Part shown: positions 52,739 through 61,521 of the stretch, piece by piece
Numbering within the stretch: position 1 is the first letter of the stretch
Layout of the letters: every line of letters begins with the position of its first letter
Source: Eledone cirrhosa
Lineage: Eukaryota
Direction of reading: 5' to 3'
Assembly (NCBI GenBank): GCA_964016885.1
Contig: OZ024757.1
Span: 7,440,001-7,504,000, forward strand
Length of the DNA stretch: 64,000 nucleotides
Position numbers and translations under genes: made by a program
The notes under the pieces: generated by a model
Databases searched by the model: none
The model's input: the letters and a program-made list of their open reading frames with translations, nothing else
Told to the model about the DNA's origin: nothing

Positions 52739-52902
52739 TAATAATAATAACAATAATGAAATATTGTGTACAGTGCCCAGGTGCACCACAACTCATCAAA
52801 AAACTGCATGTACAGTACATAGGGCAATGCACAAACATCAGTAAAATGAACAGTGCACGAGTCATGATACACACATGTGTGCATGTGTATGGAAGGGGTA
52901 CA

Positions 52903-55041
52903 TCAAGTGTAGTTTTGGCGTATTTCGGGAAGCATGAGTGTCTTAAAGGATGCAGTGTCTCGGCAGCTAACAATTGACGCAGGCAGTTTGTTCCATGCTT
53001 CAGCAACTCTGAGCGTGAACAAATGTCTACGAAAGTCATGGGAGCTGTGCTGTTTTCTGATCTTGTAGGCATGTCCACGTGTGTTAGACACCTGGAGATC
53101 AAAGAGGCGCTCAGGGTTGCAATTGGCGAGATGGTTAAAAACTTTGTGGGTATTCACCAAGTCCATTGCCAGACGTCGGAGCTTCAATGGATCCATGCCC
53201 AGGGAAGCAAGGCGTTCAGAGTATGGTAGGTGTCTGATGGAGGGTATGCGCTTGGTTGCACGTCTCTGAACAGTTTCCAGGAGGTCAATGTTCTGAGCAA
53301 GATAGGGATTCCAGACTGATGATGCGAATTCCAAGTGTGGTCGTACCATAGCTGTATACAGTTTTAAATAGATGGCTGGAGAGCGGCTAACAAAGGTCTT
53401 GCTGAGTGATGCCAAGACACCCTCGGCCTTCTTGACAATCTTAGAGACATGCTTTGTCCAACGCACATCGTTGCTGACAGTAATGCCCAGGTCACGTTCA
53501 CAAGAGGACTTCTTGATATCAGTGTTGTGGAGGGAGTATGTGGACGCTGGATTTTTCCTCCCAAAATGCATGGTGGTACACTTGTCCACAGCCAGCTTCA
53601 GTTGCCAGTCTGTGATCCATTGCTGCATTGTGTCCAGGTCTGATTGTAGGAAAGAGTTGTAGATTTCAGGATCAGTCCTTTTGATTTCAAGGTACAGCTT
53701 GATGTCATCTGCATATTTCAGTACCGTGGCATTCTTTAAGTTGGCATATATGTCATTAATATATGCCACAAACAAAAGGGGACCAAGAACAGATCCCTGT
53801 GGTACACCAGATGACATCTCATATGGTGAAGAATGCTGTCCTAGAACCGTGACTACCTCTTTTCGGCTGAGAATGAAGGATTTCAACCAGTTGAAAAGAT
53901 CATCCCTCACACCCATTGCAGAGAGTTTTGCCATAAGTCTTTTATGTGGCACAGAATTAAAAGCCTTAGTGAAGTCAAGGTAAACAACATCCACCCATGA
54001 GCCGCTGTCAGTGATCCGGGTAATGTCTTCAAGGAACTCGATAAGCTGATCACAGCAGCTGGAGTTAGGGATAAATCCAAACTGTGAAGGCCGGATGAGG
54101 CTGTGAGAGCTCCAGAAGTTCCAAAGTGTTTCTCTGACACAGGATTCCATCAGTTTGGCCATACAGCTAGTAAGACTGACTGGACGATAGTTGACAGGTG
54201 ACATGCGGTTGCCCTTTTTGAACAGGGGAATGACACTGGCAGTTTTCCACTGCTCCGGAGTAGCACCATTTTTGAGACAGTATTGAAAGAAGAAAGAAAG
54301 CTGGCGCAAAAGGAAATACCCGCCACGTTTGAGAAGCAGGTATGTAACACCATCAAGACCAGGGGAGGCAGAGTTGCACTTATTCTTAAGGTGACGTCGC
54401 AACATTGCAGGTGTAAATTCCATAGTTGTTATGGAATTTGATGTTAGAGATGGTGGAGATGGTACGTTCTGGTTTTCAACAGTAAAAATCCTTGCATAGC
54501 ACTCAGCAATGAGTTCTGCGCATTCTTTGGGATCGTCAGTGATCTGGCTTGTGTGGGGATTGTGAAGAGGACCAACTGGGGAGTGAGGTCGCTGCTTTGA
54601 ATGAACATATTTCCAGAACACCTTACTGTCAGGAATGGTTGCTATGCACTGTTCAAATTCAAGCACTGCCTTCTTTGTCCCTTGCTTGAGATGGTTAGAA
54701 GATTTATTCTGCTTTTTTTCTGTTGGCATCTGATTTATGCAGTTTATATTCCCGTTCAGCATCCCAACATTCTTTCCTGGCAAGTCGGACTGCTGAAGTT
54801 TCCCAAATTGCACTTTTGGGGTGGTTTTTTTCTGCTTACGTGGCACCGATGCTGCACATGCTATCCATATTGTGTCCAGGATGCTCTGGAGTATAGTGTT
54901 CACATCTCCAGAGTTATACATCTCATGCCAGTTTGGGCGCTGTAGCTCAGTGCAGTACAAGTTCCAATCTGCTTTATTCCAATCAAAGCAAGCAGATTGG
55001 AGATGGCTCTGGTTTGCTGCCCTCAAGTGCCAGATTGGCAA
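52903..55041 (-). pseudogene. LINE ORF2 reverse transcriptase portion (712-aa open frame, N-terminal part partly out of frame)
   Basis: Motifs SPGLDG, WKTASVIPLFKKG, NYRPVSLTS, QFGF, YLDFTKAFNSV, GVPQGSVLGPLLF, YADD. Confidence 0.92.
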
Positions 55042-55044
55042 TGA

Positions 55045-55659
55045 TCATAGCATGATCAGATTCGCCTAGAGGTTCCTCAGTAGAACAACTGATAACCACT
55101 TCAGGAGAGTGTTGAAGATCAGGTCCAAAGTGTTGTCACCTCTTATTGGAGAGGTGACTACTTGTGACCAGTTTGAGTCCAGCACTAGTTCAAGGATATC
55201 GTTTGCACTTTGTGGCCAACGAAAGGTTTTCCAATCGATCTCACGATGATTGAAGTCACCTGCAATAAACACATAAGTGGCTGTTTTCTTGGCAGCAACT
55301 CTGAGGATATCGCAAAGCTGTGTGTCCTGATGGTAGTTTGGGGGGCGATAAACAATACCAAGCAGAAGTATTGACATGGTCATACGTAGGTCACAAAAAA
55401 AAACTTCTTCTTGTAATTCGTTCAAATCAACGCAAGGAATTACCAAAAAGATTGAACGAACGTAGACCATCACACCACCACCACGGCGATTAATGCGGTC
55501 CTTGCAGAAAAGGTTGTACCCAGTAATGCTGAAAACCCCATCACAGAGTAAGGAATGTGCCCATGTTTCAGTGACTGTGATGAAGTCAGGGTCGATGCTT
55601 CTGACGTAGGAGTTAAACAGATGTATCTTGTTGCATAAACTGCAAGCATTTAAGGACAA
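55045..55659 (-). pseudogene. LINE ORF2 APE endonuclease domain
   Basis: Motifs LNACSL, VTETW, DR...GGGV, YRPP, GDFN, NTLDLIF. After a frameshift near 55108 the frame continues EPLGESDHAMI (catalytic SDH). Confidence 0.9.
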
Positions 55660-55666
55660 CTACCCT

Positions 55667-56490: not shown

Positions 56491-56949
56491 TATATATATA
56501 TAAGTGATTATTGTGGAGTATACCACTATTTTATTTGCTTAGGTGAGAGAAGCTCTATTCACAATAACATCCTCAGCTCATAAAACAGATGAATAAAACT
56601 TCTATAGTTAAGGTTCTTGTTATTGAGGACAGTTCAGGTCAGAAGAAAATTAATATCCATAATTTCAAAAGATGAAGGTTAATATATATACACATATATA
56701 TATATACAGACATACAGTGTTTACGTATGAGAGAGAGAAATAGACGTGTGTATAGAAATATGTGTGTACGTGTTGTAATAAGTCAAGATATTTCACTTCA
56801 GATACTAGAAAAGTTCACAATGTTTGTGTTGTGATGGAAAATGAAATAATACGTACTTTAGTTGTCAAATAAAGTCAAGAAAATTTAGTAAAAACTAATT
56901 ATTCACTGATTTCTGATTAAAAAAACATTTTCCTGTCCTGTAAAATGAT

Positions 56950-57210
56950 CAGATGGCAGAAGTTGGGCAGTCTGGTGTTTCTTGTTATGTAATTCTACCA
57001 GAATCTCTTCGGGAGCCTTCGAGATGTTGGTCCAGGCAGTGTTGATCTGGTTCTCTATCAGTGTGGGTGTAATTCCAGTGATGTCCGAGTAGAGACTGTC
57101 ATAGTTGAGATGTTGGTGGGCTCGGTTGTTGTAGGCCTCTCTGGTAATAACACAAAACTATTTTCCCTTGTCCGATGAGAGGTATACAAGGTTCTTAGAT
57201 CTGAGGTTAA
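56950..57210 (-). mobile_element. Penelope-like element RT fragment (DKG region)
   Basis: Manual translation gives NLRSKNLVYLSSDKGK*FCVITREAYNNRAHQHLNYDSLY..., then after a frameshift TRLPNFCHLI. These match the PLE DKG..VV....Y and P.FY.LPK.HK motifs. Confidence 0.75.
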
Positions 57211-57592
57211 CTTAGGGTAGCGAGTTGTGGTGAGTATGGGTGTGTTTTTGTAGGATCTCGAGAATAAACTCTCACAGTTAAAACTAACATCCTACAAAAC
57301 ACACACATACTCCCCACAACCTCTCCAGAGGTGAAAGCAGTGATTCTTTGCTTAAACTTTAATCTGTTCTTATAATATATATATAACCAAGTGGAAAGAT
57401 ATATACATATATCTTTTCACTTGGTTATATATTTAGAGAGAGAAAGAGCCAAATATTGTATAAGGTATATGATATATGGGTCTTTCTCTCTCTCTCTATA
57501 TATATATCTTTGTATTTGGTTGTTATGTCTCTCTCTCTCTCTGTCTCTCTCTCTCTATATATATATATATATCTTTGTATTTGGTTGTTATG

Positions 57593-57663
<71 letters not shown>

Positions 57664-57743
57664 TTATATTTGGTTGTTATGGCTCTCTCTCTCTCTATAT
57701 ATATATTTATATATATATATATCTTTATATTTGGTTGTTATGG

Positions 57744-57787
<44 letters not shown>

Positions 57788-57916
57788 GTGAGGTTTTTTT
57801 TACAAAATGAAAAATAACCGGTGTCCTACACGAGTGAAAGTATAAAGAAAAAGAGATGAAATCGAAAATGCAACTGGAGTCTTATTTTTTAAAAAAATAT
57901 ATATATTTATTTGGTT

Positions 57917-57955
57917 CCTTTACCGGTTTCGCAGTTCTTCTGCTTTTCCAAAAGG
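57917..57955 (-). ncRNA. Second hammerhead-like motif in the opposite arm, with palindromic CCGG stem III and one extra G in the core
   Basis: The minus strand reads CCTT-TTGGAAAA-GCAGaagaaCTGC-GAAA-CCGG-TA-AAGG. Confidence 0.5.
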
Positions 57956-58038
57956 TGAGTTGAGATGGAGGGTCTGCGGTTTTTCTCACATCTCATTCTC
58001 AGATGTGAGAAAAACCACAGACCCTCCATCTCAACTCA

Positions 58039-58076
58039 CCTTTTGAAAAGCAGAAGAACTGCGAAACTGGTAAAGG
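58039..58076 (+). ncRNA. Minimal type I hammerhead ribozyme-like motif, U3-A8 core variant
   Basis: CCTT (stem I) - TTGAAAA (core) - GCAG aagaa CTGC (stem II) - GAAA - CTGG - TA - AAGG (stem I'), followed by AATAAA. Confidence 0.6.
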
Positions 58077-58194
58077 AACCAAATAAATATATATATTTTT
58101 TTTTAAATAAGACTCCAGTTGCATTTTCGATTTCATCTCTTTTTCTATATATATATATATATATATACATATATCTTTTTATTTGGTTGTTATG

Positions 58195-60403: not shown

Positions 60404-60520
60404 AACTGTAGAAATGTGGAACTGGAGAACTGTTGATCTGGAGAAATGTTGAACTGAAGAACTGTAAAACTGTAGAACTGATGAACTGAAGAAATGCTGA
60501 ACTGTTGAACTGAAGAACTA
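60404..60520. repeat. Degenerate short-unit (7-9 bp) tandem repeat, AACTG(T/A)AG-like
   Basis: Repeated AACTG(A/T)(A/T)G words. Confidence 0.75.
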
Positions 60521-60747
60521 AAGTGAGGATGTAACAACAACAGAAATAATTGTGTACTCCAGTAGCTGTAAGGCTGTACTTCAAACCTGTTGGATAAAAT
60601 TGTGTACCCCAGTTTAGCTGAAGTATAATAGGCAAAAATATGAGCACACTTGAAACACATAATTGTGATATGATTGGCTGTCATTAAATAATTGAACCAT
60701 AACGCAGCACTTGTTAAATGACATACAATATGAGTTCAATATGTGAT

Positions 60748-61521
60748 AATGTTGGTGCTGCTTTGTAATATTTCTGAGACAAGACACTGACAGCATTAGT
60801 TCAGGTGATAGAGGGTCCCTCAATTACACACCACAACAGGGAATGTTGGTGTTGACCTCTAACAGATCTGAGACAAGACACTGACAGCATTAGTTCAGGT
60901 GATAGAGAGTCTCTCAATTACACAGCACAACAGGGAATGTTGGTGTTGACCTCTAACAGATCTGAGACAAGATACAGCATTAGTTCAGGTGATAGAGGGT
61001 CCTTCAATCACACATTACAAAAGGGAATGTTGGTGTTGACCTCTAACAGATCTGAGACAAGACACTGACAGCATTAGTTCAGGTGATAGAGAGTCTCTCA
61101 ATTACACATTACAACAGGGAATGTTGGTGTTGACCTCTAACAGATCTGAGACAAGACACTGACAGCATTAGTTCAGGTGATAGAGGGTCCCTCAATTACA
61201 CACCACAACAGGGAATGTTGGTGTTGACCTCTAACAGATCTGAGACAAGACACTGACAGCATTAGTTCAGGTGATAGAGGGTCCCTCAATTACACACCAC
61301 AACAGGAAATGTTGGTGTTGACCTCTAACATATCTGAGACAAGATACAGCATTAGTTCAGGTGATAGAGGGTCCCTCAATCACACATTACAACAGGGAAT
61401 GTTGGTGTTGACCTCTAACATATCTGAGACAAGACACAGCATTAGTTCAGGTGATAGAGACAAGACATATCATTACCTCAAGTGATAGAGGGTCCCTCAA
61501 TCACACATTACAACAGGGAAT
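60748..61521. repeat. 94-bp minisatellite, about 8 copies, with 90-bp variants
   Basis: TCTGAGACAAGA starts at 60773, 60867, 60961, 61051, 61145, 61239, 61333 and 61423, with degenerate partial units at both ends. Confidence 0.97.

What the first reader, a model, noticed from the sequence alone, without database searches (positions are those of the whole stretch)
57846..58146. Foldback carrying two minimal hammerhead-like motifs with a compensatory U3-A8 core
Seen: 146-148 bp inverted arms. Each carries stem I CCTT/AAGG, stem II GCAG/CTGC, GAAA, a minimal C(C/T)GG stem III and a GUA site. In the right arm the core is UUGAAAA rather than CUGANGA. Known: Penelope-like elements carry minimal type I hammerheads with a palindromic stem III and often form inverted terminal repeats, and hammerhead positions 3 and 8 base-pair. 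Inference: the double change C3U/G8A preserves that pair, which suggests selection, and canonical CUGAnGA searches would miss this variant family. Each arm has one apparent lesion (extra G on the left, CCGG to CTGG on the right), so the ancestor would be CCTTTTGAAAAGCAGAAGAACTGCGAAACCGGTAAAGG.
Basis: partly seen in the sequence, partly recalled or inferred. Interest (0 to 1): 0.75.

Follow-up and report, generated by a model that had tools for sequence, protein, structure and literature searches.

The report
Head-to-head Penelope ends with variant hammerhead
This hairpin is two head-to-head copies of the front end of a very abundant Penelope-type jumping gene, each holding a damaged copy of a known variant of a small self-cutting RNA motif; this copy is likely inert, so the finding is ordinary.

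Summary
In detail: arms 57846-57993 and 58001-58146, 142 of 146 aligned bases identical. Each arm is the 5' UTR of an RT + GIY-YIG Penelope-like element (PLE); a 66-base tail (57780-57845) was missed.

The U3-A8 core is the family norm: 17,989 motifs against 4 in the control. Related families keep the core while stem II covaries. Paired 3-8 states (17,989 and 9,834) far outnumber unpaired ones (228 and 247), though a few families dominate these counts.

U3-A8 PLE hammerheads and opposite-strand pairs are already published (PMC4209133), and this scan found such motifs before on other DNA. Of 87 sampled insertions, 46 start at the inferred transcription start and 4 near the cut site, so templates were likely mostly uncut. 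The two motifs lie on opposite strands, both are damaged, and they are predicted to be locked in a long hairpin. New member of a known kind; cleavage untested.

The parts
57780..57845 (-). PLE 'tail': 66 nt between the two preferred 3' ends (about +75 and +141 from the cut site); outer end abuts (TA)n; in full-length elements it runs on to the ORF start about 30 nt later
   Evidence: tail as the stretch between two RT start sites follows PMC11167929 (inference for this family)
57846..57993 (-). Left arm: PLE 5' UTR from the inferred transcription start, read on the minus strand and continuing into the tail
57917..57955 (-). Left hammerhead-like motif, CCGG intact, extra G in the core (absent from duplicate L008, present in L003/L033 and L034)
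57994..58000 (.). 7-nt junction between the arms, at the inferred RNA 5' end (A of CAGATG is 30 nt after a TATAAAA in 25 of 25 matches in full-length copies)
58001..58146 (+). Right arm: PLE 5' UTR from the inferred transcription start to the short 3' end (about +75), joined to (TA)n
58039..58076 (+). Right hammerhead-like motif: U3-A8 core 58043-58049, stem II 58050-58062, palindrome damaged (CCGG to CTGG, CpG-type change), predicted cut after 58072
57481..57779 (.). Host minisatellite (TC)n(TA)n-TCTTT..GGTTGTTATG, left part; target of the insertion
   Evidence: empty sites L036, L041
58147..58417 (.). Host minisatellite, right part

Best explanation
The fold-back is a non-coding insertion of a Penelope-like retroelement (RT plus C-terminal GIY-YIG, Neptune-type cysteine linker), made of two head-to-head copies of the element's 5' UTR in a (TA)n tract, each with a damaged copy of the family's U3-A8 minimal type I hammerhead motif, and it was likely made from uncut transcript and is likely inert here. 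Shown: family identity, boundaries, empty sites, ancestral state, copy counts. Inferred mechanism: a pLTR promoter (CCAAT, TATA) starts an RNA about 72 nt upstream of the cut site. The element's protein nicks (TA)n and starts reverse transcription inside the 5' UTR at two sites (+141, +75), probably one on each side of the break. Both cDNAs run to the RNA 5' end and are joined head to head, which leaves the optional 66-nt tail on one arm. In intact elements the motif is predicted to cut only weakly, as a dimer through the ACCGGU palindrome or with protein help, and U3 may pair with A17 and damp it further. At this locus both motifs are damaged, lie on opposite strands and would be buried in a long duplex.
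For: Motif 153-173 nt upstream of the ATG in 20 of 30 ORF-anchored loci; intact parents L225/L227 with RVT_1 (E 1.5e-6) and GIY-YIG (E 3e-6) and CxxxxCxxC linker, a Neptune/Nematis trait per PMC8557442. Same motif downstream of the GIY-YIG end in ORF-linked 3' repeats. 17,989 motifs vs 4 control. Core and palindrome kept while stem II pairs switch (CG/AT, AT/TA, GC/TA) across 7 U3-A8 representatives of families whose ORFs are 57% identical (A vs C) and whose UTRs gave a local alignment only near the ATG. C3-G8 9,834 (control 217), C3-A8 228 (51), U3-G8 247 (88). 5' ends: 46 of 87 insertions at -80..-62, 29 further upstream, 4 within 6 nt of the cut, 8 further 3'. Contigs of one unnamed sample (X1-X3) show best-supported loose ends at the inferred start and flat depth across the cut. 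In 11 of 13 close head-to-head pairs one arm ends near +75 and the other near +141; 13 of 61 solo arms end near +75; 2 of 22 pairs join arms of different subfamilies. PMC11167929 shows internal RT initiation, both strands nicked and extended, uncut RNA as main substrate, and protein-assisted cleavage for another PLE. Window hairpin folds at -236 kcal/mol.
Against: No cleavage assay and no RNA run listed, so promoter, start site and activity are inferred. The 3-8 counts are dominated by a few families and are not independent events; the U3-A8 count used CCGG only while the other three allowed any two middle bases. A small dispersed family (8 of the first 100 rows) reads as C3 with A8 or as a core lacking N7, an unexplained exception. 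Stem I is weak: 4, 3, 3, 2, 2, 1 and 2 contiguous pairs in the 7 U3-A8 representatives; in predicted dimers the palindrome pairs with P>=0.87 in only 4 of these 7 and stem I forms in only 1. 20 of 22 pairs share a subfamily, as a self-primed hairpin would also give. Two held copies (L103, L130) begin exactly at the cut, and no insertion started between -61 and -7 while 12 started at -6 or further 3' (some are alignment breaks, e.g. an internal deletion in L164), which hints at occasional cut templates. The sample is the first 100 of 12,823 anchor matches, all on contig C1.
Confidence: 0.82

Rival explanations
1. Same element, but the second arm was made by snap-back: the first cDNA folded on its own 3' end at the RNA start and primed copying of itself until it joined the (TA)n target near +75.
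For: 20 of 22 close pairs share a subfamily; some pairs share private changes on both arms (L011, L015); many junctions read as small hairpins around CTCA/TGAG. PMC3846280 reads palindromes at inverted junctions as self-priming.
Against: 13 of 61 solo arms also end near +75, so that site can start an arm by itself; 2 pairs mix subfamilies; both window arms reach the inferred start with 7 extra bases between. Shared changes can also come from one RNA template or conversion between arms (seen in L034).
Confidence: 0.35
2. The motif is a vestigial hammerhead: it keeps the shape for another job (for example protein binding or template recognition) and no longer cleaves.
For: Few copies start at the cut; weak stem I, and U3-A17 pairing P=0.53 in the dimer model of the window's subfamily, analogous to the presumed C3-G17 block described in PMC3884650; hammerhead mutants did not affect insertion in vitro in PMC11167929.
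Against: All catalytic core positions are invariant across 8 diverged representatives and N17 is A, C or U but never G in them; unpaired 3-8 states are rare. U3-A17 pairing is predicted in 1 of 8 representatives only.
Confidence: 0.25
3. An independent miniature inverted-repeat DNA transposon or a chance AT-rich look-alike.
For: Short, high-copy, inverted structure in (TA)n; Rfam finds no hammerhead.
Against: Arms are the PLE 5' UTR joined to an RT-endonuclease ORF; junctions differ from copy to copy; control patterns give 4 matches against 17,989.
Confidence: 0.02

Closest known systems
Minimal hammerheads of metazoan Penelope-like elements, including the U3-A8 core variant of Schistosoma mansoni Cercyon (Cervera and De la Pena 2014, PMC4209133; parts 1-2 of 4 read, supplements not seen)
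   Same: Type I motif in the pLTR, U3-A8 core, G10.1-C11.1 pair, palindromic positions 15.2-16.2, short helix I, mostly single or truncated copies, opposite-strand pairs 100-700 bp apart, dimer requirement proposed.
   Different: Helix II is 4 bp rather than 7-8; no extra base between positions 9 and 10.1; a 2-nt palindromic insert (CCGG) as in the Drosophila virilis type; about 18,000 motifs rather than about 1,300; N17 is A in the main family.
Inverted 5'-truncated pLTR insertions with optional tail of endonuclease-bearing PLEs (PMC8557442, PMC3846280; passages read)
   Same: Head-to-head inverted repeats, tail on one end only, (TA)n targets, TATA plus initiator in the pLTR, cysteine linker between RT and GIY-YIG as in Neptune/Nematis.
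   Different: Tail is 66 nt rather than 30-40 and lies wholly in the 5' UTR; the insertion has no ORF sequence; the parent has ORF1 and RT-EN in a -1 overlap.
PAc Poseidon element of Anolis carolinensis (PMC11167929; passages and section 3 part 2 read)
   Same: Two preferred ends that define the tail, AT-rich targets, uncut RNA as template.
   Different: PAc has a C3-G8 core overlapping the ORF start and initiates inside the ORF at a site not homologous to the target; here the ends fall at short TA stretches in the UTR, and nothing was tested biochemically.
Natural U3-A8 hammerheads (Perreault et al. 2011, PMC3088659; passages read)
   Same: C3-G8 covaries to U3-A8; the paper states such cores had been shown active in vitro.
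   Different: Those passages do not concern minimal PLE motifs; the cited kinetic paper (PMC1986816) was not held, so the rate penalty of U3-A8 was not read.

Membership tests
Endonuclease-bearing Penelope-like element (pLTR / 5' UTR derivative) | Same sequence linked to an ORF with RT and C-terminal GIY-YIG | tested here: met
   (20 of 30 ORF-anchored loci carry the motif upstream; RVT_1 just under Pfam cut-off, GIY-YIG above)
Endonuclease-bearing Penelope-like element (pLTR / 5' UTR derivative) | Direct or inverted pLTRs with optional tail | tested here: met
   L228 and L229 carry two same-strand motifs about 4.7 kb apart around the ORFs; inverted pairs and two tail ends
Endonuclease-bearing Penelope-like element (pLTR / 5' UTR derivative) | Insertion into AT-rich or (TA)n targets | tested here: met
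   empty sites L036, L041 versus filled L031, L033, L034, L008; target duplication cannot be read inside (TA)n
Neptune clade | CX2-5CxxC motif between RT and endonuclease | tested here: met
   CGRSNCGTC in the 775-aa ORF; feature shared with Nematis (PMC8557442)
Neptune clade | RT phylogeny with reference PLEs | not tested
   no reference PLE proteins were fetched
Endonuclease-bearing Penelope-like element (pLTR / 5' UTR derivative) | Spliceosomal intron near the 5' end (present in some PLEs) | tested here: inconclusive
   no spliced-type copy in 265 loci; no intron-like joint in contigs; no RNA run listed
Minimal type I hammerhead of PLEs | Core U4 G5 A6 A9, G12 A13 A14 A15.1, U16.1, H17 | tested here: met
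   invariant in 8 representatives; met by the right arm, broken by an extra G on the left arm
Minimal type I hammerhead of PLEs | Watson-Crick 3-8 pair | tested here: met
   counts not independent; one small family is a possible exception
Minimal type I hammerhead of PLEs | Stem II with G10.1-C11.1 and covariation | tested here: met
   GC,CG,AT,GC / GC,CG,AT,TA,TA / GC,AT,TA,GC
Minimal type I hammerhead of PLEs | Palindromic stem III allowing a dimer | tested here: met
   ACCGGU pairs between two copies in the family A model, active-like dimer -21.1 vs best -22.5 kcal/mol; lost in the right arm of the window
Minimal type I hammerhead of PLEs | Stem I closing the motif | tested here: inconclusive
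   4 bp in the window's subfamily, 1-3 contiguous pairs in the others
Minimal type I hammerhead of PLEs | Self-cleavage after NUH | not testable with these tools
   needs an assay; genomic 5' ends argue it is infrequent on templates
Non-LTR retrozyme | Tandem head-to-tail monomers each with a hammerhead | tested here: not met
   window copy is a single inverted pair; L028's 920-bp tandem includes host flank; the 467-bp C3-G8 arrays are a separate family

The most novel reading that the evidence does not exclude
In this family U3-A8 is a tuned-down switch: U3 pairs with A17 and keeps the ribozyme off, so uncut RNAs serve as templates, and the thousands of short copies are a fossil record of both the RNA start and the cleavage rate in the germ line (about half start at the promoter, about 1-5% at the cut). 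Combined with a -1 frameshift between ORF1 and RT-endonuclease, the family would be a ready test system for what PLE hammerheads are for.
Probability: 0.15. Interest if true: 0.55.

Novelty: new member of a known kind. Interest (0 to 1): 0.22.

Why it matters
The locus itself matters little: it is one decayed copy among many thousands. The family has modest use. U3-A8 motifs outnumber C3-G8 motifs in these searches (17,989 vs 9,834), so hammerhead surveys with the canonical core undercount in this genome. The role of PLE hammerheads is still open, and copy ends give a genome-only hint that templates are mostly uncut, matching the in vitro result for PAc. Near-intact parent copies (L225, L227) make the cleavage and two-site priming questions testable.

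Tried and rejected
Rfam at E<=10: no hammerhead model, only hairpin-type miRNA matches below gathering score. Canonical core with this family's stem II: 0 matches; canonical core with CCGG: 3 matches, control 144, so no C3-G8 sister of this family was found. Sequencing runs: no RNA holder listed; only contigs could be laid, which cannot show RNA ends. Intron idea (GT of stem III as donor): no spliced-type copy in 265 loci and no such joint; left open. Idea that the 4-bp stem I variant marks only short copies: rejected, it is on full-length copies too. Neighbouring fragment 56940-57300 as the parent ORF: rejected, tblastn E 0.3 and 4.7 against the family ORF, and 16 of 20 loci fetched with it show no arm within the stretch held. 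Single master MITE: rejected, junctions vary. Within-family conservation test: uninformative. One search's 5' end mapping failed (reference lacked the anchor) and was redone. MAFFT misaligned stem II, so pairs were read by anchored motif; no covariance model or R-scape-type test was run. Lunse et al. (PMC5785218) and Przybilski and Hammann (PMC1986816) were not held; they and the unread supplements of PMC4209133 may already list this or a close motif. Paper searches for a report of this family listed none by title or abstract start; this does not show absence.

Full report
1. Observation. The inverted repeat is real: arms 57846-57993 and 58001-58146, 142 identities, 4 mismatches, 2 gaps, 7-nt spacer. 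The right arm holds stem I CCTT/AAGG, core TTGAAAA (58043-58049), stem II GCAG/CTGC, GAAA, CTGG and a GUA ending at 58072; the left arm holds the same motif on the minus strand with CCGG intact and an extra G in the core. Rfam shows no hammerhead among 67 matches at E<=10.

2. Context. The insertion lies in a (TC)n(TA)n minisatellite inside a duplicated segment. L036 and L041 are empty sites; L008, L033 and L034 carry the same insertion. L034 has the extra G on both arms, which suggests conversion between arms. The ORF-like fragment at 56940-57300 is not the parent.

3. Family. A search with the right arm gave 1,113 candidates, 40 scored. A 21-base anchor 3' of the cut matches 12,823 times. 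The same motif lies downstream of a GIY-YIG end and 153-173 nt upstream of the ATG in 20 of 30 ORF-anchored loci. L225 and L227 carry a 400-aa ORF1 and a 775-aa ORF with RVT_1 and GIY-YIG and a CxxxxCxxC linker, a Neptune/Nematis trait in PMC8557442 (passages read). No tree was built, so the clade is a lead. In full-length copies a TATAAAA lies 30 nt before the A of CAGATG (25 of 25 matches), the point where both window arms begin. Each arm is therefore the 5' UTR from an inferred transcription start.

4. Is the hammerhead real? The U3-A8 pattern with CCGG matches 17,989 times against 4 for the control. By my count of its first 100 rows, 85 are this family and 15 belong to relatives with other stems II. 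In 7 U3-A8 representatives and 1 C3-G8 repeat the core is invariant apart from 3, 7 and 8, stem II pairs switch on both sides, and N17 is A, C or U. Family C is tied to a PLE ORF 57% identical to family A's, while their UTRs gave a local alignment only near the ATG. With any two middle bases in stem III, C3-G8 gives 9,834 (control 217), C3-A8 228 (control 51) and U3-G8 247 (control 88). Most listed unpaired rows look like point mutants of the large families. Limits: a few families dominate; one small family (8 of 100 rows) may have C3 with A8; stem I has only 1-4 contiguous pairs; within the family, stems are not better kept than flanks (core 23/1092, stem II 54/672, CCGG 17/336, flanks 80/2100 and 24/840; 84 of 100 arms, those reaching -60), as expected for copies that decay after insertion.

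5. Would it cut? For the window's subfamily the active-like dimer is -21.1 kcal/mol against a best fold of -22.5 in which U3 pairs with A17 (P=0.53). PMC3884650 (one passage) describes the presumed C3-G17 pair as the reason G17 blocks minimal hammerheads; the analogy to U3-A17 is my inference and holds in 1 of 8 representatives. PMC4209133 reports low in vitro activity for PLE minimal motifs, and PMC11167929 reports cleavage only with protein. At this locus the motifs are on opposite strands, both damaged, and a read-through RNA folds into a -236 kcal/mol hairpin.

6. Copy ends. I took the first 100 anchor matches on contig C1, chosen by sequence 3' of the cut. After merging 13 close head-to-head pairs, 46 of 87 insertions start at -80..-62, 29 further upstream, 0 at -61..-7, 4 within 6 nt of the cut and 8 further 3'. 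Contigs of one unnamed sample show their best-supported loose ends at the inferred start and flat depth across the cut (123 rows not shown). Among all loci held, 205 occurrences continue across the cut, 2 (L103, L130) begin exactly at it, 12 are an unrelated match inside the ORF and 1 is diverged (this set is biased to whole motifs). So templates were likely mostly uncut, with a hint of rare cut ones. 3' ends fall in two classes, 59 near +141 and 31 near +75, with 10 others.

7. How the fold-back formed. In 11 of 13 close pairs one arm is long and one short; 13 of 61 solo arms end at the short site; 2 of 22 pairs mix subfamilies. This fits priming at two internal sites on the two sides of a break, in line with PMC11167929 (both strands nicked and extended; tail equals the stretch between two RT starts). 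I took up this reading after seeing earlier scan notes and then tested it. Snap-back self-priming (PMC3846280) remains a real rival, since 20 of 22 pairs share a subfamily.

8. What is known. PMC4209133 (parts 1-2 of 4) describes U3-A8 minimal hammerheads in Cercyon PLEs, found by homology after the descriptor missed them, about 1,300 hits, and opposite-strand pairs. PMC3088659 (passages) reports natural U3-A8 covariation. PMC8557442 and PMC3846280 (passages) describe inverted pLTRs, tails and (TA)n targets. PMC6765202 (passages) reviews the dimer model. The preprint 10.64898/2026.07.22.740005 (part 1 of 5) links retrozymes to pLTRs. Two directly relevant papers were not held, and supplements were not read. 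Searches listed no paper on this family. Earlier notes of this scan report the same kind of motif in other genomes; these are unchecked and are not support.

9. Verdict. A new member of a known kind, interest 0.22. The side results (end mapping, possible U3-A17 damping, -1 overlap in the parent) are the parts worth keeping.

Noticed in passing
L225:1208-4671, L227, L224, L226, L228; family C L238-L265: The parent PLE has ORF1 (about 400 aa, no Pfam match) and RT-endonuclease in the -1 frame with an in-frame U_UUU_UUA heptamer in the overlap (5 of 5 intact family A copies); most family C copies show the same heptamer and offset. Predicted -1 ribosomal frameshift. PMC8557442's Fig. 1 legend mentions an ORF1 frameshift with pseudoknot for some PLE types; the clade could not be seen. 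Searches listed no paper on it.
   Followed up: partly
L230 (G000:C1:5738000-5740500) and many other places: Tandem 466-469-bp repeats each with a canonical C3-G8 hammerhead, CTAG stem III and a longer stem I: retrozyme-like arrays.
   Followed up: partly
G000, 8 of the first 100 rows (e.g. C1:91259722): A small dispersed family with CCGG stem III and a purine/pyrimidine stem II whose core reads as C3 with A8, or as lacking N7; a possible exception to the 3-8 pair.
   Followed up: no
L217:1231-1247: Contigs of run X4 show a cluster of A>G differences nearly absent from X1; the run kind is not on record, so RNA editing is only a possibility.
   Followed up: no
window 56940-57300 (-): Degenerate ORF-like fragment with a DKG motif, at best weakly similar to the family ORF; part of a multi-copy duplicated segment (640 candidates).
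   Followed up: partly
window 1-49698: About 49.7 kb satellite array of a 52-bp unit.
   Followed up: no
window about 52900-55660 (-): AP-endonuclease/RT-type non-LTR retrotransposon remnant judged by eye from the sequence; not tested.
   Followed up: no
window 60773-61460 and 60404-60523: 94-bp tandem repeat (7.4 copies) and an 8-bp-period array.
   Followed up: no
L028: At least three 920-bp tandem units, each a solo arm plus host flank; looks like local duplication rather than a retrozyme.
   Followed up: partly
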